Assembly (NCBI RefSeq): GCF_003334815.1 | Contig: NZ_QOWO01000039.1 | Length of the DNA stretch: 34,477 nt | Strand: one strand, 5' to 3' | From: Escherichia coli | Lineage (GTDB): Bacteria; Pseudomonadota; Gammaproteobacteria; Enterobacterales; Enterobacteriaceae | In this document: in pieces, positions 1-13,385 of the stretch | Position numbering within the stretch: position 1 is the stretch's first letter | Layout of the letters: each line of letters opens with the position of its first letter | Notes under the pieces: model-generated | What the model saw: only the letters and a program-made list of their open reading frames with translations | Told to the model about the DNA's origin: nothing | Database searches by the model: none | Translations under genes and position numbers: made by a program

Positions 1-211
1 ATCGACGATTGCTGGAAAGGCTGGGCCATACTCCTCCGGCAGAAGCAGAAAAAGCTTATTATGCTTCCATCGGAAACGATGATCTGGCAGCCTGAGTTCA
101 CAGATAAAACACTCTCCAGGAAACCCGGGGCGGTTCAGGAGGGCATCTTTAGTTACAAGCACCCAGACTAACCCTTGCCACAATAAACAGGCATGAACAC
201 TGACTGCTATT

Positions 212-245
212 GTAAGGCATTAACGGAGTCCGTATTGACGCTTAC
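212..245. repeat. IS66-family-like palindromic terminal repeat (gtaaggcattaacgg...ccgtattgacgcttac); orientation and parent element unresolved
   Basis: Its reverse complement begins gtaagcgtcaatacgg, matching the IS66 left end at 5142 (gtaagcgtcaacgggg) and the remnant right end at 8044-8077 (taagcgtcaatacggtgctccgttgacgcttac). Near-palindromic like the 8044-8077 end. Confidence 0.45.
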
Positions 246-279
246 GCTCAAGTCGCGACTAATACAACTAAATGAATGA

Positions 280-308
280 TTAACAGCTCAGCTAAACGGA
301 GCTGTTAA
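280..308 (-). terminator. Putative terminator hairpin downstream of lutC (perfect 10-bp inverted repeat ttaacagctc/gagctgttaa, 9-nt loop)
   Basis: Inverted repeat read directly; lies about 25 nt past the lutC stop on the minus strand; the U-tract after the stem is weak. Confidence 0.3.
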
Positions 309-331
309 TCGTATATACATACTAAAATGTA

Positions 332-1027
332 TTAGCAGTCATCAATAATCAAGTAAGTTGCATGTACTGGTCCATGCACACCAACAACTTTGATCAGTTC
401 TATATCTGCAGTAGAACTTGGGCCTCCAATCAGATTGATACAGGAAGGCAGTCGTTGTCCTTCCTGAGCCATTTCATGAAGTTTTTGCGCAAGCTGAGCC
501 ACTCGGGGGAGAATAGTGCTTTTGCGTAAAACAAATAATGATGCTTCAGGCAAAAGGCTTACTGAGCGCCCACGTTCTGGTGCGGAGAATAAGACAATGC
601 CTCCTGATTCTGTCAGCCCATACTCAGCGAAAACGACACCAGTTTTTGCCTTTTCAGCAAGATGGATATTTTCATCGCCCTTCTCCGGATCCCACAGAGC
701 AGCGTCCATTTCTTTTTGTAGCAATGGCGTAATCCCTGTATCGACCAGTCGTTGATCGTTGCTGATAATGACTGGCCCGGAACCGAACTTCCAACAGATG
801 TCTAAGGCTGTTGATGGTGCGTTCTCAGGCGACACCAGAACACACTCGGCAAGCATCACTTCCGAGGCAAATTTAATAAACGCCTCACAGCGTTGGTCTG
901 ATGTCAACTCTGTTAAACGTGTCGTAGCCAGCGTATTTACAGGCTCCGGCATTGCTTCGGGAATATGTCTTACTGGTCTGCCAAGCTTTCTGGCGATCGC
1001 AACGAGAAATTCCTCTCTGTTTTCCAT
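332..1027 (-). CDS. lutC: Lactate utilisation protein C (LutC/YkgG family)
   Basis: 231-aa ORF, last gene of a tightly spaced lutA-lutB-lutC arrangement; conserved C-terminal block ...AEYGLTESGG..LFS..ERGRS.SLLPE.SLF.LRKSTI.PR... resembles E. coli YkgG as recalled from memory. Confidence 0.85.
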   Translation of the reverse strand: MENREEFLVAIARKLGRPVRHIPEAMPEPVNTLATTRLTELTSDQRCEAFIKFASEVMLAECVLVSPENAPSTALDICWKFGSGPVIISNDQRLVDTGITPLLQKEMDAALWDPEKGDENIHLAEKAKTGVVFAEYGLTESGGIVLFSAPERGRSVSLLPEASLFVLRKSTILPRVAQLAQKLHEMAQEGQRLPSCINLIGGPSSTADIELIKVVGVHGPVHATYLIIDDC

Positions 1028-1030
1028 AAA

Positions 1031-2446
1031 TTACCCCTCCTTCTTATGTCGCTTGAACCAACTACGGAAGCTTTCTCCATCAGGTGATGGCAGGTCTCTG
1101 GCTTCAGTCCATTCTTTTATCGCTCCAACACTAATCGGCGTTTTTCCTTTCCTGATGAACAGACGGGCTGTTTTGGCCCCAGCAACCATACCTACCTTCC
1201 ACAACGCCGGATGGCTGTTTATGTAATTGAATGCTCTGGTTATACGGCGTTCCGTTAATGGTGTGATTTCAGACTCTGCCATAACCTGGCGATGTTTTTG
1301 TATTAGCGTTGCCAGAGGTATTTTTACAGGACATACCCCATTGCAGGCAGTGCACAATGAGCAGGCATAGGGTAAATCCTTAAAGTCTTCATATCCACCA
1401 AGCAATGGGGAAATAACCGCACCGATTGGCCCCGGGTAGATTGAACCATAACCATGCCCACCAATCTGACGATAAGCCGGGCAGGTATTAATGCAGGCAC
1501 CGCAGCGGATACATCGCAATACATCGCTGAATTCTGAGCCGAGAATCTCTGAACGCCCATTGTCAACAATAACGAGATGGAACTCTTCCGGACCATCAAC
1601 ATGTCCTTCTTCTCTGGGGCCTGTAAGCCAGGTGTTATAACCTGTCAGTCTCGCCCCGACAGCACTCCTTGCAAGCATGGTAATCAGAACATCCACCTCC
1701 TGGAATGTCGGAGCAATACGCTCCATACCCATAACAGCAATATGTGTTTTAGGTAATGTGGTGCACATCCGTGCGTTGCCTTCGTTTGTAACAAGGCAGA
1801 CTGACCCTGTTTCTGCAACGGCAAAGTTACACCCCGTTACGCCAACTTCAGCACTCAGAAAATCTTGTCTGATTTTCTCACGGATGAACAATGTCATTGC
1901 TTCTGGAGTTTCAGGCCCGTCATACCCCAGATGTTCATGTAAAACTCTGCGGATTTGATGGCGATCTTTATGTATTGCCGGCACAACCACATGCGATGGT
2001 GGCTCATGTGCTAGCTGAAGAATATATTCCCCAAGGTCCGTTTCAATCACGGGTATCCCGGCTTTCTGAAGAACGGCATTCATGCCAATTTCCTCAGTCA
2101 CCATTGATTTGGATTTAACAACCTTCCTGGCGTTTTTTTCTTTCGCCACCTTCAGTATGTAACTGGTTGCATCCTCTCTGGTACGGGCAAAATATACATG
2201 CCCGCCATTCGCAGTAACCTTTTCGGACAATTGATACAAATAAGCATCAAGATTTTCCAGAACATGCCGACGAATCTGTTCAGCTCGTGAACGCCATTCC
2301 TCCCAGTGTCCCAGTTCATCAACCATTTTCTGTCGATTAGTCCCTATGCGCTCCTGTGCGTTAGCCACAGCTTTTCGCATGATCGGGTCCTGAATCTGAA
2401 TACGGATACGCTCTTTAAACCTGATATCACTTGTTTTCAAAGACAT
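1031..2446 (-). CDS. lutB: Lactate utilisation protein B (LutB/YkgF family), 4Fe-4S iron-sulfur protein
   Basis: 471-aa ORF with ferredoxin-type cysteine motifs CIRCGACINTCP and CSLCTACNGVCP; 3-bp gap to lutC and 10-bp gap to lutA. Confidence 0.9.
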   Translation of the reverse strand: MSLKTSDIRFKERIRIQIQDPIMRKAVANAQERIGTNRQKMVDELGHWEEWRSRAEQIRRHVLENLDAYLYQLSEKVTANGGHVYFARTREDATSYILKVAKEKNARKVVKSKSMVTEEIGMNAVLQKAGIPVIETDLGEYILQLAHEPPSHVVVPAIHKDRHQIRRVLHEHLGYDGPETPEAMTLFIREKIRQDFLSAEVGVTGCNFAVAETGSVCLVTNEGNARMCTTLPKTHIAVMGMERIAPTFQEVDVLITMLARSAVGARLTGYNTWLTGPREEGHVDGPEEFHLVIVDNGRSEILGSEFSDVLRCIRCGACINTCPAYRQIGGHGYGSIYPGPIGAVISPLLGGYEDFKDLPYACSLCTACNGVCPVKIPLATLIQKHRQVMAESEITPLTERRITRAFNYINSHPALWKVGMVAGAKTARLFIRKGKTPISVGAIKEWTEARDLPSPDGESFRSWFKRHKKEG

Positions 2447-2456
2447 TCTGTTTACC

Positions 2457-3176
2457 TCATCTGTGCATCAGGACTTCAGCAATATGCATCACTTTTACAG
2501 GATGCCCTTCACGGTTAAGCCGACCGCCGATGTTTAGCAGGCAACTGGCGTCAGCCCCGATAAGAAAATCAGGTTTAACATCCATAATATGCCCGACTTT
2601 CTCTTTCACCATTTCACCAGAGATCTCCGCCATTTTTACAGAGAATGTGCCGCCAAACCCGCAGCACGTTTCCTGAGCGTGAAACGGCAGTAGCTCAAGC
2701 CCCTGTACATTCTCAAGTAGCAAAAGCGGCTCTCTGGTTACACCCAGCTTACGGGAAAGGCTGCAGGAGGGATGGTACACAGCGCGACCATTGAGTTTTG
2801 CCCCAACATCTGTGATGCCAAGATGATTTACTATAAATGATGTCAAATCATGCAGGCGTTCAGCCACTTTTTCAGCTCGTGCCGCCCACTCAGGTTCTTC
2901 ACTGAGATAGCGAGCGTAATTTTTTATCGTGTAAGTGCATGACCCGGCAGGAGATACTACCGGCCAGTCATTCTCTTCCAGCGAAGATATGAGATTTTTC
3001 ATGCCCGGGATGGCATCACGAACATAACCGCCATTTATCGCTGGCTGACCACAACATCCCTGCTTTTCGGGGAAATGGACATTGCAACCCAATTGCTCCA
3101 GTAACAGCACACTCTTTTGTGCCATCCGGGATTTAAACGCATCACCAATGCAGGTGACGAAAAAGTTAACATTCAC
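2457..3176 (-). CDS. lutA: Lactate utilisation protein A (LutA/YkgE family), cysteine-rich Fe-S oxidoreductase subunit
   Basis: 239-aa ORF; N-terminus MNVNFFVTCIGD... and CCG-type cysteine motifs (GCCGQP, CCGFGG) typical of YkgE/LutA; first of the three lut genes. Confidence 0.9.
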   Translation of the reverse strand: MNVNFFVTCIGDAFKSRMAQKSVLLLEQLGCNVHFPEKQGCCGQPAINGGYVRDAIPGMKNLISSLEENDWPVVSPAGSCTYTIKNYARYLSEEPEWAARAEKVAERLHDLTSFIVNHLGITDVGAKLNGRAVYHPSCSLSRKLGVTREPLLLLENVQGLELLPFHAQETCCGFGGTFSVKMAEISGEMVKEKVGHIMDVKPDFLIGADASCLLNIGGRLNREGHPVKVMHIAEVLMHR

Positions 3177-3225
3177 AGAAATTTCTCCTGTTGATTAATA
3201 TTCCACGTCCTTTTGTTGTTTTTTC

Positions 3226-4782
3226 TCAGGCCATGAACAGGTGGTAGACAAGGCCTACTTTCAGTCCAAGAATAACAATATAAGCAAAGCAGTACTTCAG
3301 TGTTCCTGACATGATTACGCTGCCCTGACCATCCATACGGGTGGCTGAAACAGCGATAGCAATACTCTGAGGAGAAATCATTTTGCCGCCTGTTGCGCCA
3401 GATGTATTTGCGGCAGCCAGCCAGAGCGGGTCCACATGCAATTTTTCAGCCGCAGTAGTCTGCAATTTACCAAACAGAATGTTGGAGTTTGTGTCACTAC
3501 CAGTAACAAATGTACCAAGAGCGCCGATAACCGGAGCAATGAAGAGGTAGGCCCCACCAGTCAGATCCACAAGGCTCTGTGCCAGAGTGCCAATCAACCC
3601 ACAGACATCCATTACCGTTGCCATGGCAACAATCGCAGAAATGGCAATAATGGAGTTTTTAAGTTGTTTTACCGTGCTGACAAATACGTTTAACAGGCAT
3701 GACAGGGATGCTTTCTGTATCAAGCCGCCAATAACACTGGCAATGATAATCAGAACACCGGGGGTTGCGATCCATTCAATTTTCATCGACAGATTGCTGC
3801 CGTTACTCAGAGAGAAGGTGAGTGACGAGGCAATCTGAGACACTGCACTTTTTATCGTCGGGAACAGTGGAGAGCAAAGCAGAATGAACAGAAAGATCAG
3901 AATGTAGATTGAGCACGCACGTAACAACGCCCCACGAGAGTATGAAAGTGCGCTGGCGCTATCTGCTGAACTCTCAATAAGAAATTCAGGTTCTGTTTTT
4001 TCTTTACGGTTTTTTGCCATAAAGACTATAACGATCAGACTGACAAGACTTCCTGCGAAAGCCGGGAGCTCTGCGCCAAGATTAACAGCCACCAGATACT
4101 GAGGTATCAATGTGCTAATACCGCACATCAGGGTAATTAACCCTACGCCTCGTATAGCTTTCATACCTCCACCGATAATCGTGACGATAACGAAGGGGAG
4201 CAGAATGTTGAACAGTGCCAGCTGAAGAATAATCGTCCCGCTGAGTGTGGTTACAGGTAAATTAACTTGTTCAGCAAGCACGGAGACAGGTATACCGACT
4301 GCCCCAAACGCTGTAGGGACTGTATTAGCAACCAGTGATGCAATCGCTGCTTTTAGTGGGTTAAAGCCCAGTGCAATGAGTATACCTATGGGGATTGCTA
4401 CCGCTGTACCGTATCCGGCGGCCGCCTCAAGAAATCCGCCAAAACACCATGAGATAAGAAGAACCTGGATGCGTTTATCGTCACTAACGCTCGCCAGAAC
4501 ATTTCTCAGAATATCCATGCTTTTTGTCGCATTCATCAGGTTATAGCTGTAAATGGCAGCAAGGATGACAATCACAATCGGCCACAAACCTTTGATTGCG
4601 CCGTATACCACAGCAGATCCCATATCCATAACTGGCGTCTGCCAGAAAACCCCTCCAAGGATTAGCGTGAGCAGGAGAGTGCTAAGCACAGAATAGTGTA
4701 TGGGCATTTTGACTTTCAGAATCAAAATGATCATCGCCAGAAGGGGGGTAAGTCCCAGTAAAAAAAGCAGGTAATCGTGCAT
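3226..4782 (-). CDS. lctP: L-lactate permease (LctP family), polytopic inner-membrane transporter
   Basis: 518-aa highly hydrophobic ORF with multiple predicted transmembrane segments, directly upstream of lutABC on the same strand (49-bp gap); RBS aaggaa before the ATG. Confidence 0.8.
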   Translation of the reverse strand: MHDYLLFLLGLTPLLAMIILILKVKMPIHYSVLSTLLLTLILGGVFWQTPVMDMGSAVVYGAIKGLWPIVIVILAAIYSYNLMNATKSMDILRNVLASVSDDKRIQVLLISWCFGGFLEAAAGYGTAVAIPIGILIALGFNPLKAAIASLVANTVPTAFGAVGIPVSVLAEQVNLPVTTLSGTIILQLALFNILLPFVIVTIIGGGMKAIRGVGLITLMCGISTLIPQYLVAVNLGAELPAFAGSLVSLIVIVFMAKNRKEKTEPEFLIESSADSASALSYSRGALLRACSIYILIFLFILLCSPLFPTIKSAVSQIASSLTFSLSNGSNLSMKIEWIATPGVLIIIASVIGGLIQKASLSCLLNVFVSTVKQLKNSIIAISAIVAMATVMDVCGLIGTLAQSLVDLTGGAYLFIAPVIGALGTFVTGSDTNSNILFGKLQTTAAEKLHVDPLWLAAANTSGATGGKMISPQSIAIAVSATRMDGQGSVIMSGTLKYCFAYIVILGLKVGLVYHLFMA

Positions 4783-5360
4783 GTCATTTCCTTAAACGAA
4801 AACAAAGTCAGCATCATTACTGTGGTTATTGATAGTTTCCACGCCCTGTCGGACGAGAGTGTTTATTTATCAGGGGGAGAATGAGTATCGTCTCCAAAAT
4901 TGGGATGTTCTTATAAAGTATTTTTTAGTTTAAAAAATATAGCTGAATCGTTTCATTGTTATCTTCCATGAATAAATGTTATGAAATAATACTTTTTGGG
5001 TATTTTTTGTTTATGCGTGTAACACTTGTGTGCTATCCCGATATAACCTTAAGACTGGAGTTGCAACTGGAGCTCGTCGAAAATCAACGCCCAAATCCTC
5101 GACAAATGGAGAAAGAGAATGAGCAATATCACCAGGAATAGGTAAGCGTCAACGGGGATGAAATACGGGGATTACCGGAGTCAGAGCGTCTTGCCGTCAG
5201 GCAGCAGCGAAGCAAAGTGTTACTGACGTCACTGCATGAATGGATGGTGGAGAAGAATGGTACGCTGTCGAAAAAATGTAAGCGTCGTCTGAGTACCGTC
5301 TGGTCCCGAATCCAGGATCCTGTAACTTAAGCACCCACTTATTTTGCAGGTGGACACCTC

Positions 5361-5744
5361 ATGCGCGCTAAAGAAAGACTTCCCCGGAAACACTATTCCC
5401 CTGAATTCAAAATGGAACTGGTCAGGCTGGCTCTTGAAGAAGAAGGCAGTATTGCCGCACTGGCCCGGAAACATGACGTCAATGATAACCTGCTCTTTAA
5501 ATGGATAAGGCTCTGGCAGCGTGAAGGGCGGGTCTGTCGGCCCCGAAAAAACTCATCGTCGCTTCCTGCCCTGATACCCGTGCAGCTTCAGGCGGGCTCT
5601 TCTCTCCCAACCTTCGAACTACCATCCTGCTCTCCTCCCGCTACCTGCCACATAAAATGTCGGGGAGGAGAAATAACACTGACTCATCCCTCTGCTGAAC
5701 TCATGAGCACTGTCCTGCGCGAACTGATGCGGGGGCCTGTATGA
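5361..5744 (+). CDS. tnpA: IS66-family accessory protein OrfA (TnpA)
   Basis: 127-aa ORF, first in the IS66-type three-gene arrangement; its stop overlaps the orfB start (ATGA). Confidence 0.8.
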   Translation: MRAKERLPRKHYSPEFKMELVRLALEEEGSIAALARKHDVNDNLLFKWIRLWQREGRVCRPRKNSSSLPALIPVQLQAGSSLPTFELPSCSPPATCHIKCRGGEITLTHPSAELMSTVLRELMRGPV

Positions 5745-6088
5745 TAAATCTTCCCGCAGGCACAAAAATCTGGCTGGTTGCCGGTATCACCGATATGCGC
5801 AACGGCTTCAATGGCCTCGCCGCAAAGGTGCAGACCGCGCTGAAAGATGACCCGATGTCCGGCCACGTCTTCATCTTCCGGGGACGCAGCGGCAGTCAGG
5901 TAAAACTGCTCTGGTCCACCGGCGATGGTCTGTGCCTGCTGACAAAGCGACTAGAACGTGGTCGCTTCGCCTGGCCCTCAGCCCGCGATGGCAAAGTGTT
6001 CCTGACGCCGGCGCAACTGGCGATGCTGATGGAAGGTATCGACTGGCGACAGCCAAAGCGGTTACTGACATCCCTGACCATGTTGTAG
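5741..6088 (+). CDS. tnpB: IS66-family accessory protein OrfB (TnpB)
   Basis: 115-aa ORF translationally coupled to orfA; precedes the transposase gene. Confidence 0.8.
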   Translation: MINLPAGTKIWLVAGITDMRNGFNGLAAKVQTALKDDPMSGHVFIFRGRSGSQVKLLWSTGDGLCLLTKRLERGRFAWPSARDGKVFLTPAQLAMLMEGIDWRQPKRLLTSLTML

Positions 6089-6137
6089 CGCTCTTTATCC
6101 TGGTTGTCGCAGAATAAGCCTGGTAAAATACAGGCTT

Positions 6138-7672
6138 ATGAACGACACCTCTTCTGACGACATCCTTCTGCTGAAACAGCGCCTGGCCGAACAGGAAGCG
6201 TTGATCCACGCCCTGCAGGAAAAGCTGAGCAACCGGGAACGCGAAATAGACCATCTGCAGGCGCAACTGGATAAGCTGCGCCGGATGAACTTCGGCAGTC
6301 GTTCCGAAAAGGTATCCCGCGTATCGCGCAAATGGAAGCTGACCTGAACCTGCTGCAGCAGGAAAGCGATACGCTGACCGGCCGGGTGGATGACCCGGCA
6401 GTGCAGCGCCCGCTGCGTCAGACCCGCACCCGCAAACCGTTCCCTGAGTCACTCCCACGGGATGAGAAGCGGCTGCTGCCGACTGAGCCGTGTTGCCCGG
6501 AGTGCGGTGGTTCGCTGAGTTACCTGGGTGAGGATGCCGCCGAACAGCTGGAGCTGATGCGCAGCGCCTTCCGGGTTATCCGGACAGTCCGTGAAAAGCA
6601 TGCCTGCCGTCGGTGCGATCGCATCGTTCAGGCCCCGGCTCCTTCGCGCCCCATCGAACGGGGGATCGCCGGACCGGGGCTGCTGGCCCGAGTGCTGACC
6701 TCAAAGTATGCAGAGCACATACCGCTGTATCGCCAGTCGGAGATCTATGCCCGCCAGGGTGTAGTGTTGAGTCGTTCTGTACTGTCGGGCTGGGTGGATG
6801 CGTGTTGTCGTCTGCTGGCACCGCTGGATGAAGCCCTTCAGCACTATGTCCTGACCGACGGCAAACTCCATGCTGACGATATGCCTGTCCCGGTGCTGTT
6901 GCCGGGCAATAAGAAGACGAAGACCGGGCGCTTATGGACGTACGTTCGAGACGACCGCAACGCCGGATCAGCGCTGGCCCCCGCAGTGTGGTTCGCTTAC
7001 AGCCCGGACAGAAAAGGTATCCACCCTCAGACCCATCTTGCAGGCTTCAGTGGCGTACTGCAGGCTGATGCCTACGCCGGGTTCAACGAGCTCTACCGCG
7101 ACGGCCATATAAAGGAAGCCGCGTGCTGGGCCCATGCCCGCCGAAAAATCCACGATGTTCACGTCCGTACCCCGTCAGCCCTGACGGAGGAGGCGCTGAA
7201 ACGGATCGGCGAGCTGTATGCCATCGAGTCGGAGCTCAGAGGTAAAAGAGCAGAGGAACGGCAGGCAGTCCGGCACCAAAAAGTGCTGCCGCTGCTGGCG
7301 TCACTGGAGGGGTGGCTGCGGGAGAAACAGAAAACCCTCTCAAGGCACTCAGAACTGGCGAAGGCGTTCGGGTATGCGCTGAACCAGTGGCCGGCGCTGA
7401 CCCGCTATGCAGAAGATGGCTGGGTGGAGGTGGATAATAACATTGCCGAAAACGCCCTACGACTGGTCAGTCTGGGGAGAAAAAACTGGCTGTTCTTCGG
7501 CTCGGATCATGGTGGTGAGCGCGGTGCGTCACTGTACAGTCTTATCGGGACGTGCAAATTAAACGGCGTGGATCCGGAACGCTATCTGCATCATGTACTT
7601 GATGTCATCGCCGACTGGCCTGTGAACCGGGTGGGTGCTCTGCTCCCGTGGCGGGTTACTCTGCCTGCCTGA
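6138..7672 (+). pseudogene. tnpC: IS66-family transposase (TnpC) split by a frameshift near 6330-6347
   Basis: Track ORFs 6138..6347 (N-terminal coiled-coil/leucine-zipper-like segment) and 6332..7672 (zinc-finger-like CxxC...CxxC, catalytic core, C-terminal ...LLPWRVTLPA) overlap in different frames and together make one IS66-type transposase. Confidence 0.75.
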
Positions 7673-7713
7673 CCAGCTTCACTTCGTCAATACGGTTCTC
7701 ACTGCACGCTTAC

Positions 7714-8047
7714 GAAAAAATCCAGACTGGGCGAAGCGTTCAGCTATGTACTGAATCAGTGGGATGCCCTCTGTTATTACAGTGATGACGGTCTGGCGGA
7801 GGCGGATAATAATGCTGCGGAAAGAGCGCTTCGTGCAGTCTGTCTCGGAAAGAAAAACTTTATGTTCTTTGGCAGCGATCACGGCGGCGAGCGTGGAGCA
7901 CTGTTGTACGGGCTGATCGGCACCTGCCGTCTGAACGGTATCGATCCGGAAGCGTATCTGCGCCATATCCTGAGCGTACTGCCAGAATGGCCTTCCAACC
8001 GAGTTGATGAACTCCTGCCATGGAACGTAGTACTCACCAATAAATAA
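7714..8047 (+). pseudogene. Truncated IS66-family transposase, C-terminal ~110 codons only
   Basis: In-frame translation of 7714-8047 matches the C-terminal region of IS66 TnpC; there is no N-terminal part and no orfA/orfB upstream. Confidence 0.7.
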
Positions 8048-8077
8048 GCGTCAATACGGTGCTCCGTTGACGCTTAC
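7714..8077 (+). mobile_element. 3' remnant of a second IS66-family element: partial transposase C-terminus plus palindromic right terminal repeat
   Basis: Starts immediately after the first element's right end; encodes ...FMFFGSDHGGERGALLYGLIGTCRLNGIDPEAYLRHILSVLPEWPSNRVDELLPWNVVLTNK, diverged from the intact copy's C-terminus; ends in a repeat whose reverse complement is gtaagcgtcaacgg... Confidence 0.7.
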
Positions 8078-8125
8078 AGTTTTTTCAGAAGACGGCAAAG
8101 TAGAGATGGCTGGTTCAGGTTCAGA

Positions 8126-8270
8126 GCATGAGTTTCCCCGGTGTGACGGGCATGGCGGGGCGGATTTTGCAGATACAAAAGACGTAAAAAAACCGACTGG
8201 TGAGGCCGGCTTTTTTACTGTTACGCTACAAAGTTGATGACTCTGACCAGAAAAGAGCTGTCTATAACTG
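8126..8270. repeat. Repeat family copy A (~145 bp) with a 19-codon ORF (8128-8187, MSFPGVTGMAGRILQIQKT) and a terminator-like hairpin
   Basis: Aligned by eye to copy C over about 145 bp from catgagt...cccggt...ggcatgg.gggcggatt through the hairpin to gaaaag...tct. Confidence 0.6.
8186..8216. terminator. Bidirectional intrinsic-terminator-like hairpin (A7-ccgac-tggtgag-gccggc-T6) in repeat copy A
   Basis: GC stem flanked by an A-run on one side and a T-run on the other, so it can terminate on either strand. Confidence 0.5.
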
Positions 8271-8554
8271 ACGCTAAAAATGATAATTTGTTCTACCTGA
8301 TTAATGCAACATGCCATAAGTTTACGGGAAAGGCTGACCACCTGATATTGTTGCAAAATACGAAAGTCGTCAAAATCGCGGTGGGGAGCTTGAGGCTGTA
8401 AGCTGAAAGCGTTTGTGAAAGCCCCGGGAGATTGTTCTATCAATCAACCAAGGGCTCTACTGTAATGCCTAGACAACATTATAGTAGCCCGCTGACGTCC
8501 TCCACGCCAGAGGGAGCTTGCTACGTACAGCTTGTCGTTACTCAGAAGTAATAA

Positions 8555-8625
8555 ATGTAAAAAAACCGACTGATGAGGTCGGTTTTCTTACTGTTCCGTT
8601 ACAGAGTTGGTGGCCCTGACTGGAG
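8555..8625. repeat. Repeat family copy B (partial: hairpin plus conserved downstream segment only)
   Basis: gtaaaaaaaccgactgatgaggtcggttttcttactgttccgttacagagttggtgg matches the terminator-proximal part of copies A and C; the small-ORF part is absent. Confidence 0.5.
8559..8589. terminator. Terminator-like hairpin in repeat copy B (A7-ccgac-tgatgag-gtcgg-TTTTCTT)
   Basis: Perfect 5-bp GC-rich stem with flanking A-run and T-rich run. Confidence 0.4.
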
Positions 8626-8745
8626 GAAATCTCTTTTCAGCTAACGTTCTTATAATAGTGTTCTGTTCATTTGATAACAACCACCCTTGTAATCCGCAGG
8701 TTAGCACTGTCTGGCGACACTTCTGTCGTGATGACGGTAACCAGA

Positions 8746-8892
8746 ACATGAGTCTTCCCGGTATAACAGGCATGGTGGGGCGGATTTGCAGAAACAACAG
8801 ATGTAAAAAAACCGACTGGTGAGGTCGGCTTTTTTACTGTTCCGCTACAGAGTTGGTTGCTCTGGGCGGGAAAAGACAGTCTGTATCTAACA
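8746..8892. repeat. Repeat family copy C (~145 bp) with a 24-codon ORF (8748-8822, MSLPGITGMVGRICRNNRCKKTDW) and a terminator-like hairpin
   Basis: Same unit as copy A; the small ORF shares its first 13 codons with copy A, then diverges through a 1-nt indel. Confidence 0.6.
8805..8835. terminator. Bidirectional intrinsic-terminator-like hairpin (A7-ccgac-tggtgag-gtcgg-c-T6) in repeat copy C
   Basis: Perfect stem with A-run and T-run on either side. Confidence 0.5.
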
Positions 8893-8953
8893 TAATCAAT
8901 TCTATGCTTTGTCCCACACTATGTCAAAAATCCTGCTAATCAAAAAAGAGATC

Positions 8954-9130
8954 TCACGTTAAAAATTTGTACCCTTCTTTAACTTCCAGTGCCTGCTCCT
9001 TTGACTCAAACATCAGTCTTGTTTTCCCGGGAACACCCCATGAAATGTATTCAACATCTATCCACCATTTTCCATATTCTTCATATGGCCCGGATATTAC
9101 TTTTTTGACAAAGGCGTCTACCAGATTCAT
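8954..9130 (-). CDS. Hypothetical small protein (58 aa, MNLVDAFVKKVISGPYEEYGKWW...)
   Basis: Internal ATG of track ORF 8954..9238, preceded by aaggaaaaaaca-ATG (RBS-like); the upstream part of the track ORF has no RBS and looks non-coding. Confidence 0.4.
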   Translation of the reverse strand: MNLVDAFVKKVISGPYEEYGKWWIDVEYISWGVPGKTRLMFESKEQALEVKEGYKFLT

Positions 9131-9515
9131 TGTTTTTTCCTTTTTGTGTTGAAAATAATTAATGCCAGAGCACAGCGAAAATAATGAATGCGCTGGCTGT
9201 GATAATTGCGATTTTCTCCCATATGATATTTTTCTCATGGGGGTTTCTACGGAGATTATTTCTTCGCATTGAGATACCGGTATTCATGTTTTATCTTGGA
9301 CTTTTGTTTTGTTGTCTGTCTGGCAGGCTGTTCTGCGCCCGTTTGTGACAAGGTTAGCTTATGGGGTTAAATGGTCACGGACATCATGCGGACGGTTCCC
9401 TGTCACATGCCATCTGGTTTTTTCATTCAAATTGAGAGATATTGCTAAGTTGAGTCGCTTGCGATAGTGGACTCCTGTTTGTAAGTGAGTGCCATTGTTT
9501 ATTTCATGAAGAGGA

Positions 9516-9731
9516 TTGATTATGAGCATGCCTCCTGCGATAGCTAATACTTTCTTGTTTGAAATGATGAAGAGTAAATCAAAAGACGTTACACTTGCTG
9601 CGATCTATGCATTAGGTGAAGGCCGGTGTCAGGCGGAGAACATTACTCGTGAATTACATAGATTGAGTCAAAGTGATGATATGGAAATAAAAATTGCTGC
9701 GATTAAAGCACTTGGTCGAATTTATCGGTAA
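9516..9731 (+). CDS. Hypothetical small protein with two HEAT/PBS-lyase-like repeats
   Basis: 71-aa ORF with tandem AAIYALGEG / AAIKALGRI motifs; aagagg-like RBS upstream; the true start may be one of the nearby in-frame Met codons. Confidence 0.4.
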   Translation: MIMSMPPAIANTFLFEMMKSKSKDVTLAAIYALGEGRCQAENITRELHRLSQSDDMEIKIAAIKALGRIYR

Positions 9732-9761
9732 CGGCATAAGTTATCTGTTGTAATGAACAAA

Positions 9762-9783
9762 AGCCGGCTCATTTGAACCGGCT
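9762..9783 (-). terminator. Putative terminator hairpin just after the excA stop (agccgg-N10-ccggct, then a U-rich tract on the minus strand)
   Basis: 6-bp GC stem about 20 nt past the minus-strand excA stop, followed on that strand by uuuguucauu. Confidence 0.4.
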
Positions 9784-9802
9784 GTTATGGAGGGAGCTTA
9801 TC

Positions 9803-10465
9803 TTAAAATACTTCGGCTACAGGCATGCCTGCAATCTGCTCCCACTCCTTACGCTTTTCCTGAATCAGGCGAGGAAAGTCGACAGGGTAATCATATCCTC
9901 GACTTGCCATTGCGTGCATGGTGTTTGATGCTGTTTCTGGATGAGCACACCATGATGGAACAGGAACCATTGGCAGATTGATGTATTTCGTATGAATTTC
10001 CAGTTTTTTGTCGTCTGTTACAGTACGAGTGAAATTATGAATGTCAAAACCGATAACATCCATAATGTTGCCTGGATAGATACGGACATACAACATTGTG
10101 CCATTTTTAAGGTCAATGCCGAAATAAGCTCCCTGGGTTAAAGATAATCCCTCATACCCCTTCTCTGGAGAGTAGAAGCCTGACTCTTTTATTGTTTGTA
10201 CAACTTTTCTTATTTTTTCTCTCCTTGTTTTTGCACGTGAGTACATCCATATGCCTGGCGCAAGTAATAAGAACCAACTACCGAAAGTGACAACATAATC
10301 TTCGACCTTATTTCCGAAATAACGATCAGAACATAGCATTTCGGTAAAGCCTAATGCGCAGAACAGAAAAAAAGGTATTCCAAGAAAGAAATAAGCTTTT
10401 CTTAATACATAATAAAATAGCCACCAGGTTGGAAATCTGTCTGTTGTTTCTTTTTTAGCTTTCAT
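9803..10465 (-). CDS. excA: Inner-membrane protein at the ExcA (entry-exclusion) position of IncI-type transfer regions
   Basis: 220-aa ORF with two N-terminal hydrophobic segments, last gene of the minus-strand tra block directly after the DotA-like gene; assignment is positional. Confidence 0.45.
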
Positions 10466-10535
10466 ATAATGCCTCCCCTCGTACTATCTATTATTTTAAT
10501 GCCGATGGGGAGGTTGTGCAATATTTATATTGATA

Positions 10536-12704
10536 TTATCCTTTTATTCCGTCCTTGTCGTCACTTCCTTTTGTATTATCTTTAAGACGATCTGTTTTCA
10601 TTCCAGGAGTATGTCGGATATTGCGACTTCCTCCAATAAATATTTCTTTAACAGAATTTGCCATGCTGCCAAGCGTGTTGGCTCCATCACTTCCCCCTAG
10701 GAAGTTAATAACATGATCAGGTAGGTAGGCCTGAAGGGCAAATATGGCAGCTACAGTGGTTGTACAAATTCTGGCGTATATCAGCAAGAAACCAGCAAGA
10801 CTGAAAATACCGGTCAGCGAATTGAACTGTACGTTAACCAGGGCAGCGCCAAATAATGCATTCAGTATTGTGCCTACGGCGATGATGGCTACAGAAGCAA
10901 AGAAAAAACCAAAGACCATGATGGGCGGCCTTATCATACTATCAATTAAGTATATATAACCGTAGGCTGCCCGACTTCCTCTGTCTTCTGATGTCCCGAG
11001 ATGTGTTGCAGCCCACAGCGGCCCGGCGGTACATCCTATTAATACGCTGACTATCCAGTTCCCGATGCCTGTCATCCAGAAAATAAACGGAATGAATGGC
11101 AGGTAAATTGATAAGGAAAATCCAGCACAGAACATCAGGAACAAAAGAAAATAAACAGGTGGTGCAAGTGCTTCAAACAGCGCGGTAAGCATCGAAGCGG
11201 CACCTGTTAGTGAGTTAAAGAATTTTACAAGAATTGAATCTTTGCCACCGGCAACGACAACTCTGGCCGTTGTATATATAGTCCAGATTCCTTCTGCACT
11301 TACCATTGTTATATCTCCGATATTTTTCATTTTTATCAGAGGATTAATTTGAGCACTGGTTGTGCCTGTGCCACTTGTTTCCGTTGCAATCCTGTTAGTG
11401 AGACTAACAAGGGGGCCCATAATTTCAGACAAGGCAGATTTCGGATCTTGTGCATTTGCCATGCGTTGTTCACTGGATGATACTACTGTGCCCAGCGGTG
11501 GCGTATAGGAGGAATTCTGCAGTTGCGTCCTATAGGCACTCATGACCGCACTGAATAAGTCAGTATCACCAACTTCTCCCAGTGATGACATTGAAGTTAC
11601 AGCTGGAGCTCTGTCAGCCAGCTCTGCCAGACGCTGGTTAGCAGTGGCAAAGGTCTGATACCATGCGCCAAGCGTTACCCACCCGTAGGTTGTGAGATAA
11701 GATTTAAGAGCCTCTTTTCTGGATTGCTCTCCGTTATCAGTGGGTAGCGATTTTTGCACAGCACGTTCGTATTCGTCGGCTGCTTTCTGAATTCGTGTCT
11801 CGATATCCGGCAGTGTTCCGTTGCCAGAATTTCTTTTTTCCAGAAATGTTGTCACAAACTCACTGGCAGCGTTGTCCATGTCGCTAATCATATTATCCAT
11901 GGCTGCACGTTGTGCTGAGATAACACCGCTGTACTCGTTTTTACTGAAGGGATTAAAGAATTTTCCAATCGTCGACTGATCTGTTGTTCCGTTTCCTTCT
12001 ACTGACAGGCTGGCTGTACCACAGATACCGCTGCCATTGGATACCGTGACAGTGTAATTACCACTGGCGGTTTTAGCTGATTCTGTCATCAGTGAAGTCG
12101 AGGATTTGGCGGTCTGATTAAAATCATTTAGTCCTGCGTTAACCGCATACTTACATAGTTCCATTTCAAAAATGCCACGCGCAGCTGTTCGTGTGGATGC
12201 CTGAACTGGCTGTACAGTCATTGAATAACCATTTGCGATATTATCAGCGGCAACTTGCACCATCACATTGGCGGACCCAACCCCCATTATCGATGCGCCC
12301 CATAACATAATGAGCTGAGCGAGACTCCAGCCATTTCCGGTAGGAACGATCATCAGAAAGCCTGCGACGAAACTCAGTATGCCGACAATATCGCGCCCGA
12401 CGCTGAATACCTGTCCCTGATGCCCCGAACGCACAACATGGCGGATACTAATGAAGATACACCAGACGATAGCAAGTACGGCAATGATATTGTTGAACAC
12501 CCAGAACATGCTTCCGATCAGGGTGGGGTCGCTGGTTGACAGTGGATTGGTGACCACATCACCGAATATCGTGACCAGCGCCTGGCGGGACAGATCGTCA
12601 GGATTGGTGGCGGCAGACACAATATCCTGATAGGTCACTGAAGCCATTGCCGGCAGTGAGGATATAGCAAGGCCTGCACAGAGTGCGCGAAGTAAAATTT
12701 TCAC
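10536..12704 (-). CDS. traY: DotA/TraY-like polytopic integral membrane protein of a type IVB secretion/conjugation system
   Basis: Large ORF with signal-peptide-like N-terminus and many hydrophobic segments. Start set at the GTG at 12704 (ggag-N6-GTG giving MKILLRALCAGLAISSLPAMA); the track ORF runs up to 12773 without an RBS. Confidence 0.6.
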   Translation of the reverse strand: MKILLRALCAGLAISSLPAMASVTYQDIVSAATNPDDLSRQALVTIFGDVVTNPLSTSDPTLIGSMFWVFNNIIAVLAIVWCIFISIRHVVRSGHQGQVFSVGRDIVGILSFVAGFLMIVPTGNGWSLAQLIMLWGASIMGVGSANVMVQVAADNIANGYSMTVQPVQASTRTAARGIFEMELCKYAVNAGLNDFNQTAKSSTSLMTESAKTASGNYTVTVSNGSGICGTASLSVEGNGTTDQSTIGKFFNPFSKNEYSGVISAQRAAMDNMISDMDNAASEFVTTFLEKRNSGNGTLPDIETRIQKAADEYERAVQKSLPTDNGEQSRKEALKSYLTTYGWVTLGAWYQTFATANQRLAELADRAPAVTSMSSLGEVGDTDLFSAVMSAYRTQLQNSSYTPPLGTVVSSSEQRMANAQDPKSALSEIMGPLVSLTNRIATETSGTGTTSAQINPLIKMKNIGDITMVSAEGIWTIYTTARVVVAGGKDSILVKFFNSLTGAASMLTALFEALAPPVYFLLFLMFCAGFSLSIYLPFIPFIFWMTGIGNWIVSVLIGCTAGPLWAATHLGTSEDRGSRAAYGYIYLIDSMIRPPIMVFGFFFASVAIIAVGTILNALFGAALVNVQFNSLTGIFSLAGFLLIYARICTTTVAAIFALQAYLPDHVINFLGGSDGANTLGSMANSVKEIFIGGSRNIRHTPGMKTDRLKDNTKGSDDKDGIKG

Positions 12705-12800
12705 AGTAACTCCGGAATAGAATTGCGTATGGGCAAAGGCCACACAGGATTTAATTAAGGGGGATGGCGACATGCCAGTGGTACTGGCATCTGGACGTGA

Positions 12801-13385
12801 TCAGTATTGTTTACTGGTTACGGCAATTAATGTGGCATTGCGCCAGCCATTGCGGTAGTTCAGAAAATCACGGAAAGTCCCCTGCTCGGGTTCGCTGACT
12901 TTTCGTTCATGCAACTGCCAGAGGCGGTATGTAACTATCAGAGCTCTGGAAGCACAAAGAGCGACGCCTGACAGAATCAACACAAGAGTGCTGATGGCGC
13001 GTACCTGTGTCATCAAAGGTAATGAGGAGGCGGCAAAGAGCATACCGCTGAGGAATAAAGCGATGGCCAGCAGACTCCAGCAGCATAACCGCCATACTGT
13101 TCTGCGCCGGCGGAAACGACGATCCAGGTCGTCTACTGACATATGGCTGGCCTGCAGAGCTTCTTCCCACGAGAGGCAGAGTTGCGCCTTTTTATTATTT
13201 ACCTGACGAAATTTTTCCAGCCTGCTTTTTTGTTGCTTCAGCATATGCTGTACAGAATTCGTTATCAGGCGAGTCTCCATCAGAGGAACAAAAATGTTAA
13301 TAATCCTCCGGGTGGCTATGCGGGTTATGGATAGTGATTTTTTGACGTTTTTCGTCTGGTCTGAATTTTCCGGTAACTTATTCAT
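12801..13385 (-). CDS. Membrane protein at the TraX position of the tra block
   Basis: 194-aa ORF with C-terminal hydrophobic helices; co-directional and tightly packed with neighbours. Confidence 0.5.
   Translation of the reverse strand: MNKLPENSDQTKNVKKSLSITRIATRRIINIFVPLMETRLITNSVQHMLKQQKSRLEKFRQVNNKKAQLCLSWEEALQASHMSVDDLDRRFRRRRTVWRLCCWSLLAIALFLSGMLFAASSLPLMTQVRAISTLVLILSGVALCASRALIVTYRLWQLHERKVSEPEQGTFRDFLNYRNGWRNATLIAVTSKQY

What the first reader, a model, noticed from the sequence alone, without database searches (positions are those of the whole stretch)
8078..10535. Transfer block ends at excA: no coupling protein, relaxase or oriT follows
In IncI-type backbones as I recall them, excA is followed by trbA-trbB-trbC, then the nikAB relaxase and oriT. 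Here the 1.7 kb beyond excA contains only a terminator-like hairpin, two small hypothetical genes, the repeat family and IS66 elements. The module is therefore either truncated or rearranged by IS activity, or its DNA-processing genes lie elsewhere; a partial set could be non-self-transmissible.
Basis: partly seen in the sequence, partly recalled or inferred. Interest (0 to 1): 0.5.

Follow-up and report, generated by a model that had tools for sequence, protein, structure and literature searches.

The report
IS66 island splits intact IncI transfer genes
The IncI plasmid transfer genes are not truncated after excA: a 14.4 kb IS66-bounded lactate-utilisation island was inserted into a dispensable spacer, and the coupling protein, relaxase and oriT sit intact on the same plasmid just beyond the window's left edge, so this is an ordinary finding.

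Summary
In the window nothing resembling TrbA/B/C, NikA/B or oriT follows excA (9803-10465, minus strand).

The "truncation" reading does not hold. The window is 34,476/34,477 identical to E. coli ECOR 3 plasmid RCS85_pI (NZ_LT985321.1, 65959-100434). That replicon carries full-length trbA-trbB-trbC, nikA-nikB and an R64-type oriT, 95.5-100% identical to R64 proteins of the same length.

Window 8078-10535 is the normal IncI spacer between excA and pnd, as in R64 and pAVS0747-A. At 8077/8078 a 14,371 bp segment lies in that spacer. It is bounded by IS66-family inverted repeats (GTAAGCG...CGCTTAC) and flanked by an 8 bp duplication, AGTTTTTT, that is single-copy in R64 and pAVS0747-A. It carries lutABC, a lactate permease, nested IS66 copies and two IS3-family copies. 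trbA begins 814 bp beyond the island, 7.1 kb left of the window.

Published TnSeq on the IncI1 plasmid pESBL shows the spacer genes are dispensable for transfer. All four database plasmids with this junction keep trbABC/nikAB, and MOB-suite types them conjugative.

Verdict: an already-known kind of event, low interest.

Side note: the "repeat family" is three AgrB-like antitoxin sRNA genes with no DqlB toxin gene, plus a toxin-less pnd leader.

The parts
10536..12773 (-). traY (DotA/TraY family), the penultimate gene of the IncI tra operon
   Evidence: TIGR04346, 571.9 bits. RefSeq annotates it as DotA/TraY.
9803..10465 (-). excA, the IncI-type surface (entry) exclusion gene and last gene of the tra operon
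   Evidence: NF033891, 289.5 bits against a cut-off of 100.
9762..9783 (-). Intrinsic-terminator-like hairpin just after excA. It lies between the convergent excA and HEAT ORF.
   Evidence: 9 bp stem with 6 G-C pairs, followed by a T-rich tail.
9522..9731 (+). Small 69-aa HEAT-repeat protein gene, a conserved IncI backbone gene
   Evidence: Pfam HEAT_2, 2.4e-07. The same protein, WP_000062603.1, is annotated in R64, pAVS0747-A and others.
8954..9130 (-). Conserved 58-aa hypothetical gene (WP_001054900.1). The 94-aa ORF 8954-9238 is an extension caused by a T6 run at 9133-9138.
   Evidence: Annotated; no Pfam match. The window has T6 where NZ_LT985321.1 has T5.
8803..8890 (-). AgrB-like sRNA gene, copy 3, with the promoter-like site TTGACA-17-TAGAAT at 8927-8899 and a terminator at 8837-8803
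   Evidence: Rfam RF02891, 59.4 bits against a gathering score of 40. Promoter and terminator.
8557..8644 (-). AgrB-like sRNA gene, copy 2, with the promoter-like site TTGTTA-17-TATTAT at 8680-8652 and a terminator at 8591-8557
   Evidence: RF02891, 50.7 bits; promoter and terminator.
8384..8525 (+). Paralogue of the pnd (hok/sok-type) mRNA leader and antisense region, with no toxin ORF after it
   Evidence: RF01794, 67.5 bits against a gathering score of 59. A 75-nt core (8417-8491) is 93% identical to the real pnd leader. The alignment diverges before the pndA ORF. The genuine locus scores 131.7 bits.
8184..8271 (-). AgrB-like sRNA gene, copy 1, the most diverged copy, with a terminator at 8218-8184
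   Evidence: RF02891, 37.7 bits, just under the gathering score of 40; terminator; alignment.
8078..8085 (.). Right-hand copy of the 8 bp target-site duplication AGTTTTTT. IncI backbone resumes here.
   Evidence: The empty site ...GAATGTGCC AGTTTTTT CAGAAGACGG... is seen in pAVS0747-A and R64. In the ECOR 3 plasmid the octamer is present on both sides of the island.
7714..8077 (+). Right part of an internally deleted IS66-family element (delta-IS66), ending in the island's outer right inverted repeat ...CGCTTAC
   Evidence: The translated fragment matches the last 87 positions of NF033517 IS66 transposase, 4.5e-30. Inverted repeat and coordinates.
5278..7713 (+). Complete IS66-family element (tnpA 5361-5744, tnpB 5741-6088, tnpC split by a frameshift at 6332-6347), nested in the delta-IS66 and flanked by the 8 bp duplication GAAAAAAT (5270-5277 and 7714-7721)
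   Evidence: NF047595, NF033819 and NF033517 hits. Inverted repeats and target duplication.
5142..5277 (+). Left part of the delta-IS66. Its left inverted repeat GTAAGCGTCAACGG matches the right end at 8077.
332..4782 (-). Island cargo: lutC 332-1027, lutB 1031-2446, lutA 2457-3176 and L-lactate permease 3226-4782
   Evidence: RefSeq annotation of the identical records.
1..137 (.). End of a 1,310 bp IS3-family element, one of two inverted copies inside the island in the ECOR 3 plasmid

Best explanation
The window shows the distal end of a normal IncI (MPF_I, type IVB) tra operon: ...traX-traY-excA, then a terminator. This is followed by the normal excA-to-pnd spacer.

An IS66-family transposition event placed a 14,371 bp island into the A/T-rich octamer AGTTTTTT of that spacer and duplicated the octamer. 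The island runs from the left inverted repeat of a complete IS66 to the right inverted repeat of an internally deleted IS66. It carries a DUF6882 gene, lutCBA, a lactate permease, a nested IS66 and two later IS3-family insertions.

The island moved pnd, trbA-trbB-trbC (the DotM-like and DotL/IcmO-like coupling complex), nikB-nikA (the MOBP relaxase and its accessory protein) and oriT 14.4 kb further from excA, and so out of the 34.5 kb window. No transfer gene was cut.
- trbA keeps its native 814 bp of upstream sequence.
- The spacer genes are dispensable for conjugation.
The plasmid is therefore expected to remain self-transmissible.

Shown: sequence identity to the record, gene integrity, the target duplication, the empty sites and recurrence of the island elsewhere.

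Inferred: that the whole island moved as one unit, that trbABC expression is unaffected, and that the plasmid actually transfers.
For: 1. Source. The window equals NZ_LT985321.1 65959-100434 apart from one homopolymer indel.

2. Genes on that replicon. nikA 45605-45937, nikB 45948-48647, trbC 54260-56551, trbB 56544-57614, trbA 57633-58841 and Hok/Gef (pnd) 59133-59285 are all annotated. All are open and have the same lengths as in R64. Identities to R64 are NikA 100%, NikB 95.5%, TrbC 99.6%, TrbB 99.2% and TrbA 100%.

3. Family assignments. TrbC: NF041447, 1043 bits against a cut-off of 800. NikB: NF041893 MOBP relaxase, 413 bits against 250. TrbA gives only a sub-threshold DotM/IcmP match, 75 bits against 230.

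4. oriT. The 171 bp upstream of nikA are 168/171 identical to R64. Two of the three changes are a compensatory pair in the inverted repeat.

5. Junction. Both pAVS0747-A and R64 have an uninterrupted ...GTGCC AGTTTTTT CAG.... In the ECOR 3 plasmid the octamer flanks a segment starting GTAAGCG and ending CGCTTAC.

6. Element family. The IS66 TnpA, TnpB and TnpC families are matched. A second, nested IS66 has its own 8 bp duplication, GAAAAAAT.

7. Mobility. The same 11,760 bp island occurs at 99.6% identity, with identical ends, in an unrelated IncF plasmid.

8. Sibling plasmids. All four PLSDB plasmids with this junction (E. coli and E. fergusonii; USA, UK and the ECOR collection) keep nikAB and trbABC, and MOB-suite types them conjugative.

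9. Function. In pESBL TnSeq, oriT, NikA/B and TrbA/B/C are required for transfer, whereas PndCA, Hp25-28 and TraE/F/G are not (PMC4288162).

10. Tolerance of the site. An independent IS21 insertion sits in the same spacer in NZ_CP134381.1.
Against: - No experiment here shows that this plasmid transfers.
- The window's source is inferred from near-identity, not given.
- The outer left and right inverted repeats come from two different IS66-family members. They share only GTAAGCG plus an ACCGT motif, so one-step transposition of the whole island is not proven.
- In the IncF plasmid the island is flanked by a 765 bp direct repeat rather than an 8 bp duplication. That copy was therefore probably acquired by recombination.
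- The replicon has other lesions that could lower transfer: IS1 in traE at the window's right end and a 5.6 kb cargo insertion between nikB and trbC. TnSeq classes traE as non-essential.
Confidence: 0.93

Rival explanations
1. Genuine truncation. IS66-mediated deletion removed trbABC-nikAB-oriT, leaving a partial, non-self-transmissible transfer module.
For: Within the window no trb or nik homologue is found, and IS66 sequence abuts the backbone at 8077.
Against: The near-identical complete replicon, and three sibling plasmids, all carry full-length trbABC, nikAB and oriT. An intact 8 bp target duplication on both sides of the island shows that no adjacent backbone was deleted. Backbone on the far side resumes at exactly the next base of the empty site.
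Confidence: 0.02
2. Stepwise origin of the island. A single IS66-family element first inserted at AGTTTTTT and created the duplication. The cargo (lut genes, further IS66 copies) arrived later, by IS-IS homologous recombination or nested insertions, rather than by one composite-transposon event. The consequence for the tra module is the same.
For: The two outer ends belong to different IS66 family members. Nested IS66 and IS3 insertions show that the island grew stepwise. The IncF copy is flanked by 765 bp repeats typical of recombination.
Against: Replacing one end of a resident IS by recombination while keeping both copies of the target duplication requires homology at both ends, and the divergent ends do not obviously provide it. 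The identical 11.76 kb unit with the same termini in two unrelated backbones fits a discrete mobile unit. No plasmid with a lone IS66 at this octamer turned up among the rows listed.
Confidence: 0.2
3. Assembly artefact. The excA-IS66 junction is a mis-join at repeated IS sequence, and excA is really contiguous with pnd-trbA.
For: IS66, IS3 and IS1 copies are classic sources of mis-assembly.
Against: Four independently assembled complete plasmids share the same junctions at 100% identity over 6 kb. Both junctions show a precise inverted-repeat end plus an 8 bp duplication, which a mis-join would not create.
Confidence: 0.01

Closest known systems
IncI1 reference plasmid R64 (NC_005014.1) transfer region, with the pESBL plasmid studied by TnSeq
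   Same: Same gene order and orientation: oriT-nikA-nikB-trbC-trbB-trbA-pnd-hyp-...-hyp-HEAT-excA-traY-traX.... NikA and TrbA are identical, and the other proteins are 95.5-99.6% identical. The oriT region is 168/171 identical. The same AGTTTTTT site is present, uninterrupted.
   Different: This plasmid has a 14.4 kb IS66/lut island in the pnd-excA spacer and a 5.6 kb ABC-transporter/HlyD/CPBP insertion between nikB and trbC. IS1 sits in traE. R64 has one agrB-like copy plus the dqlB toxin gene in the spacer, whereas this plasmid has three agrB-like copies and no dqlB. The sibling plasmids are typed IncI-gamma/K1, not IncI1/B/O.
IS66-family insertion sequences (ISEc23- or ISCro1-like) and IS-bounded composite islands
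   Same: tnpA-tnpB-tnpC organisation, terminal GTAAGCG inverted repeats and 8 bp target duplications, seen twice: AGTTTTTT and GAAAAAAT.
   Different: The outer ends come from two different family members, one of them internally deleted. tnpC is frameshifted in both complete copies. Movement of the whole 11.8-14.4 kb unit in one step is inferred, not shown.
DqlB/AgrB type I toxin-antitoxin system (validated on pOXA-48; dinQ-agrAB in the E. coli chromosome)
   Same: The 'repeat family' matches the Rfam AgrB model. Each copy has its own promoter-like site (copies 2 and 3 by the scan tool; copy 1 only by eye) and an intrinsic terminator. R64 and pMB9481_2 carry dqlB at the homologous position.
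   Different: No dqlB or dinQ toxin ORF exists anywhere on this plasmid or its siblings, and no second copy of the complementary 5'-UTR target was found. These are antitoxin-only loci.
pnd (hok/sok-type) type I toxin-antitoxin system of IncI plasmids
   Same: Window 8384-8525 matches the sok/hok-leader model, and a 75-nt core is 93% identical to the plasmid's real pnd leader.
   Different: It has a 16 bp deletion and no pndA toxin ORF. The homology ends where AgrB-like copy 2 begins.

Membership tests
IncI-type (MPF_I / type IVB) self-transmissible conjugation module | DotA/TraY and the cognate ExcA exclusion protein at the end of the tra operon | tested here: met
   TIGR04346, 571.9 bits; NF033891, 289.5 bits.
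IncI-type (MPF_I / type IVB) self-transmissible conjugation module | Coupling complex TrbC (DotL/IcmO-like) with TrbA (DotM-like) and TrbB on the same replicon | tested here: met
   Absent from the window but present and full length on NZ_LT985321.1 at 54260-58841. TrbC: NF041447, 1043 bits against 800. Identities to R64 are 99.2-100%. The direct TrbA match to the DotM model is below its cut-off, 75 bits against 230.
IncI-type (MPF_I / type IVB) self-transmissible conjugation module | MOBP relaxase NikB with accessory protein NikA | tested here: met
   NikB is 899 aa, NF041893 412.9 bits against 250, with the HTDTDNLHVHVAVNRV motif visible. NikA is 100% identical to R64.
IncI-type (MPF_I / type IVB) self-transmissible conjugation module | oriT with nick region and NikA-binding inverted repeat upstream of nikA | tested here: met
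   168/171 identity to the R64 sequence upstream of nikA, with a compensatory change in the inverted repeat. pESBL maps oriT to the 83 bp ending 15 bp before nikA. The exact nick position is recalled from the R64 literature and was not tested here.
IncI-type (MPF_I / type IVB) self-transmissible conjugation module | Demonstrated conjugative transfer | not testable with these tools
   The only indications are the MOB-suite prediction 'conjugative' and the spread of the island-bearing lineage across E. coli and E. fergusonii.
IS66-family insertion sequence | tnpA, tnpB and tnpC (DDE transposase) genes | tested here: met
   NF047595, NF033819 and NF033517 hits. tnpC is frameshifted, so this copy may be non-autonomous.
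IS66-family insertion sequence | Terminal inverted repeats starting GTAAGCG and 8 bp target-site duplications | tested here: met
   AGTTTTTT flanks the island. GAAAAAAT flanks the nested IS66 at 5278-7713.
Composite (IS-bounded) transposon moving as one unit | The same unit at another site, with its own short target duplication | tested here: not met
   The same 11.76 kb unit is present in IncF p3RM8082, but there it is flanked by a 765 bp direct repeat, not an 8 bp duplication.
DqlB/AgrB type I toxin-antitoxin system | AgrB-type antisense sRNA gene | tested here: met
   RF02891 scores of 59.4 and 50.7 bits, above the gathering score of 40; the third copy scores 37.7.
DqlB/AgrB type I toxin-antitoxin system | DqlB/DinQ-like hydrophobic toxin ORF with a complementary 5' UTR | tested here: not met
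   tblastn with R64 DqlB and K-12 DinQ gave only noise (E of 0.27 or higher) on the whole plasmid. blastn with the R64 dqlB locus hit only the agrB-like copy itself.
hok/sok (pnd) type I toxin-antitoxin system | Hok/PndA toxin ORF downstream of the leader and antisense region | tested here: not met
   The leader matches RF01794 at 67.5 bits, but homology to the real pnd locus stops before the toxin ORF. The genuine pnd locus lies off-window at record 59133-59285.

The most novel reading that the evidence does not exclude
The toxin-less array in the excA-pnd spacer consists of three AgrB-like sRNA genes, each with an intrinsic terminator (promoter-like sites found by the scan for two), plus a pnd leader/antisense remnant. 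It may not be decay debris. It could be a functional 'anti-addiction' cassette: the sRNAs would neutralise DqlB/DinQ-type and Pnd-type toxin mRNAs of competing IncI/IncL/M/IncK plasmids, or of the chromosome. That would let this IncI-gamma/K lineage displace rivals, or be lost, without killing the host.
Probability: 0.12. Interest if true: 0.45.

Novelty: already known. Interest (0 to 1): 0.1.

Why it matters
It matters mainly as a caution. An apparent "missing relaxase and coupling protein" in a fixed-size window can be produced by cargo insertion plus the window edge. Calling such plasmids non-transmissible from partial sequence would be wrong.

Biologically, it documents that the pnd-excA spacer of IncI plasmids tolerates large IS-borne cargo. 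Here that cargo is a lactate-utilisation operon, also found on an IncF plasmid. The insertion leaves intact every transfer gene that TnSeq classes as essential.

The only mildly new angle is the antitoxin-only AgrB-like array in this lineage.

Tried and rejected
1. NZ_CP024481.1 as the source. It matches only window 138-34400, because the ends differ (IS3 and IS1 insertions). The true match is NZ_LT985321.1.

2. Apparent extra sequence in some plasmids. The '+627 bp, 2 pieces' hits (H16-H30) looked like an extra cassette, possibly dqlB. Inspection showed only that BLAST had joined the 75 bp pnd-leader paralogue; the arrangement is the same as in pAVS0747-A.

3. A hidden toxin gene. I looked for a dqlB/dinQ toxin next to the AgrB-like repeats and found none. 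The short plus-strand ORFs beside the repeats (for example MSFPGVTGMAGRILQIQKT) are not conserved in frame in R64. I treat them as non-coding.

4. Weak Rfam hits. Thr_leader and OrzO-P hits fell far below their gathering scores. They are attributed to the shared terminator hairpin.

5. Literature and record look-ups.
- The R64 oriT papers (PMC179678) are not held.
- Accession AP005147 is not in the collection; NC_005014 was used instead.
- One paper search timed out.
- PMC9282650 contained no oriT sequence text.

6. Walker A motif. A simple regex found no Walker A motif in TrbC. I did not pursue this, because the protein is 99.6% identical to functional R64 TrbC.
Full report
**Source of the window.** A megablast of window 7000-13000 against PLSDB found four plasmids with 100% coverage and identity. 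The whole window aligns to E. coli ECOR 3 plasmid RCS85_pI (NZ_LT985321.1, 117,804 bp, circular) at 65959-100434, with no mismatches and one gap. The gap is a T6 versus T5 run at window 9133-9138. A sibling plasmid, NZ_CP024481.1, matches window 138-34400 with four mismatches. It differs at the ends because the ECOR 3 plasmid has extra IS3-family and IS1 insertions there. Record coordinate = window coordinate + 65958. That the window derives from this replicon, or a near-clone, is an inference from identity.

**Check of the observation.** The tra genes lie on the minus strand. traY is 10536-12773 (TIGR04346, 571.9 bits) and excA is 9803-10465 (NF033891, 289.5 bits). The sequence below excA contains:
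- a terminator-like hairpin at 9783-9762;
- a 69-aa HEAT-repeat ORF at 9522-9731 (Pfam HEAT_2, 2.4e-07);
- a conserved 58-aa ORF at 8954-9130 with no Pfam match;
- three copies of a repeat;
- IS66-family sequence from 8077 leftwards.

tblastn with TrbA/B/C and NikA/B found nothing in the window.

**What lies at the break.** Many intact IncI plasmids align contiguously with the window from 8077/8078 rightwards at 99.8-99.9%. The 1.7 kb "beyond excA" is therefore ordinary backbone. In pAVS0747-A (NZ_CP124468.1) the order is nikA-nikB-trbC-trbB-trbA-Hok/Gef(pnd)-hyp(252 bp)-[spacer]-hyp(177 bp)-HEAT-excA-traY. R64 (NC_005014.1) has the same order.

At the point that corresponds to window 8078, pAVS0747-A reads ...GAATGTGCC AGTTTTTT CAGAAGACGG..., and R64 reads ...gaatgtgcc agtttttt caggagacgg.... 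In the ECOR 3 plasmid the left junction is ...GAATGTGCCAGTTTTTT|GTAAGCGCATC... at record 59663/59664. The right junction is ...GACGCTTAC|AGTTTTTTCAGAAGACGG at window 8077/8078. A 14,371 bp segment with IS66-type termini is thus flanked by an 8 bp direct duplication of a target that is single-copy in empty sites. This is the signature of IS66-family transposition, and it shows that no backbone was lost at either junction.

**Anatomy of the island.**
- In the sibling plasmid NZ_CP024481.1 the island is 11,760 bp. The ECOR 3 version equals it plus two inverted 1,310 bp IS3-family copies. Window 1-137 is the end of the second copy.
- From left to right the island contains: a complete IS66-family element (island 1-2703, tnpC frameshifted); an IS66 3' remnant; a DUF6882 gene; lutC, lutB, lutA and an L-lactate permease (window 332-4782, minus strand); and an internally deleted IS66 at window 5142-8077.
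- The deleted IS66 has matching ends, GTAAGCGTCAACGG. It carries a nested, complete IS66 at 5278-7713 with its own 8 bp duplication, GAAAAAAT.
- The same 11.76 kb unit, 99.6% identical and with identical termini, sits in the IncFIA/FIC plasmid p3RM8082. There it is flanked by a 765 bp direct repeat containing hok/sok rather than by an 8 bp duplication.
- The unit is clearly mobile between replicons. Whether it entered the IncI spacer in one transposition step or by stepwise build-up is unresolved, because the outer ends come from different IS66 members.

**Where the "missing" genes are.** On NZ_LT985321.1:
- nikA 45605-45937
- nikB 45948-48647
- trbC 54260-56551
- trbB 56544-57614
- trbA 57633-58841
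- pnd (Hok/Gef) 59133-59285

All are uninterrupted and match the R64 lengths of 110, 899, 763, 356 and 402 aa. Identities to R64 are NikA 100%, NikB 95.5%, TrbC 99.6%, TrbB 99.2% and TrbA 100%. NCBIfam confirms TrbC (1043 bits against a cut-off of 800) and a MOBP relaxase for NikB (413 bits against 250). TrbA gives a sub-threshold DotM/IcmP match.

The 171 bp upstream of nikA are 168/171 identical to R64. They include the sequence complementary to CATCCTGTCCCG and the long inverted repeat, in which two of the three differences form a compensatory pair. pESBL maps oriT to exactly this position relative to nikA. The exact nick position is from my memory of the R64 literature and was not tested.

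The trbA start codon lies 814 bp beyond the island and 7.1 kb left of the window edge. A separate 5.6 kb insertion (ABC transporter with peptidase domain, HlyD, CPBP protease) lies between nikB and trbC.

**Functional consequence.**
- TnSeq on the IncI1 plasmid pESBL classed oriT, NikA/B and TrbA/B/C as required for transfer. PndC/A, Hp25-Hp28 (the spacer genes) and TraE/F/G were classed as non-essential (PMC4288162).
- The insertion site lies between the hyp(252 bp) gene and the first AgrB-like repeat, inside this dispensable zone.
- Terminators after excA and at each repeat make read-through from the tra operon into trbABC unlikely even in intact plasmids. Separation should therefore not affect trbABC expression (inference).
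- All four PLSDB plasmids with the island at this site retain nikAB and trbABC, and MOB-suite types them conjugative. They come from E. coli and E. fergusonii, from US human stool, UK cattle faeces and the ECOR collection.
- An independent IS21 insertion in the same spacer occurs in NZ_CP134381.1.
- I therefore predict that the plasmid is self-transmissible. This was not tested.

**The repeat family.** Rfam identifies the three repeats as AgrB-like sRNAs on the minus strand:
- 8803-8890, 59.4 bits
- 8557-8644, 50.7 bits
- 8184-8271, 37.7 bits (gathering score 40)

Each ends in a strong intrinsic terminator. Copies 3 and 2 have sigma-70-like promoters, TTGACA-17-TAGAAT and TTGTTA-17-TATTAT.

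AgrB is the antitoxin of the DinQ/DqlB type I toxin family. DqlB-agrB was validated as an addiction module on pOXA-48, and dqlB was reported on 67% of IncI1 and 83% of IncB/O/K/Z plasmids (PMC12365149). R64 and pMB9481_2 carry dqlB at the homologous place. This plasmid, its sibling NZ_CP024481.1 and pAVS0747-A have no DqlB/DinQ-like ORF anywhere.

Between copies 1 and 2 lies a paralogue of the pnd leader/antisense region (8384-8525; RF01794, 67.5 bits against a gathering score of 59). It lacks the toxin ORF. The spacer is thus a mosaic of antitoxin-only type I TA parts. The parts may be remnants, or conceivably an anti-addiction device; that is the "novel case", which I rate as low probability.

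**Verdict.** Its recollection of IncI gene order is right, and so is the idea that IS activity is involved. The module is nevertheless neither truncated nor partial. A precise IS66-type insertion, together with the window boundary, explains the apparent absence. This is a well-known kind of plasmid rearrangement. Interest is low, at 0.1.

Noticed in passing
window 8184-8271, 8557-8644, 8803-8890 (minus strand): Three AgrB-like antitoxin sRNA genes, each with an intrinsic terminator; the promoter scan found sigma-70-like sites for copies 2 and 3 only. No DqlB/DinQ toxin gene exists anywhere on the plasmid, whereas R64 has dqlB at the homologous spot. RefSeq annotates nothing here.
   Followed up: partly
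window 8384-8525 (+): A toxin-less paralogue of the pnd (hok/sok-type) leader. It scores 67.5 bits on Rfam sok, and a 75-nt core is 93% identical to the plasmid's real pnd leader. It has a 16 bp deletion and no pndA ORF.
   Followed up: partly
window 138-8077; L009 3181-14940 (NZ_CP043827.1): The 11.76 kb IS66-bounded lutABC/lactate-permease island is also present, at 99.6% identity, in an IncFIA/FIC plasmid from cattle E. coli. There it is flanked by a 765 bp direct repeat (98.6% identical) carrying hok/sok. That suggests acquisition by homologous recombination of a circular intermediate rather than by transposition.
   Followed up: partly
window 5142-8077: Nested IS structure. A complete IS66 at 5278-7713, with target duplication GAAAAAAT, sits inside an internally deleted IS66 (about 0.5 kb, both inverted repeats intact). 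tnpC of the complete copy is split by a frameshift at 6332-6347.
   Followed up: yes
window 34400/34401 to 34477: An IS1A copy interrupts traE, which is intact in the sibling plasmid NZ_CP024481.1. pESBL TnSeq classes traE as not required for transfer.
   Followed up: partly
window 1-137; L004 41935-46095: Two identical 1,310 bp IS3-family copies in inverted orientation bracket the DUF6882 gene inside the island. They occur only in the ECOR 3 plasmid version.
   Followed up: partly
L004 28673-33475 (NZ_LT985321.1 48673-53475), off-window: A 5.6 kb insertion lies between nikB and trbC. It carries a peptidase-domain ABC transporter, a HlyD adaptor, a CPBP protease and a 190-aa hypothetical protein, and looks like a bacteriocin or microcin export and immunity module. 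It is absent from R64 and pAVS0747-A.
   Followed up: no
L002 38433-38823 (NZ_CP024481.1 88433-88823), off-window or at the window's right edge: Only about 390 bp separate traE from pilV in this lineage. R64 has the rci recombinase and the shufflon there, so the shufflon appears to have been lost.
   Followed up: no
window 9133-9138: A T6 homopolymer, where NZ_LT985321.1 has T5, lies just upstream of the start of the 58-aa gene. It creates the apparent 94-aa ORF 8954-9238. R64 also has T6.
   Followed up: yes
L004 25521-25559 (upstream of nikA), off-window: Relative to R64, the oriT inverted repeat carries a compensatory pair of changes (TGCAATTG...CAATTGCC becomes TGTAATTG...CAATTACC). pAVS0747-A shares them.
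   Followed up: partly
NZ_LT985321.1 whole record: MOB-suite reports no replicon type for the ECOR 3 plasmid, although its siblings type as IncI-gamma/K1. A Tn21-like mer/class 1 integron/tetA region occupies record 107 to about 22,000.
   Followed up: no
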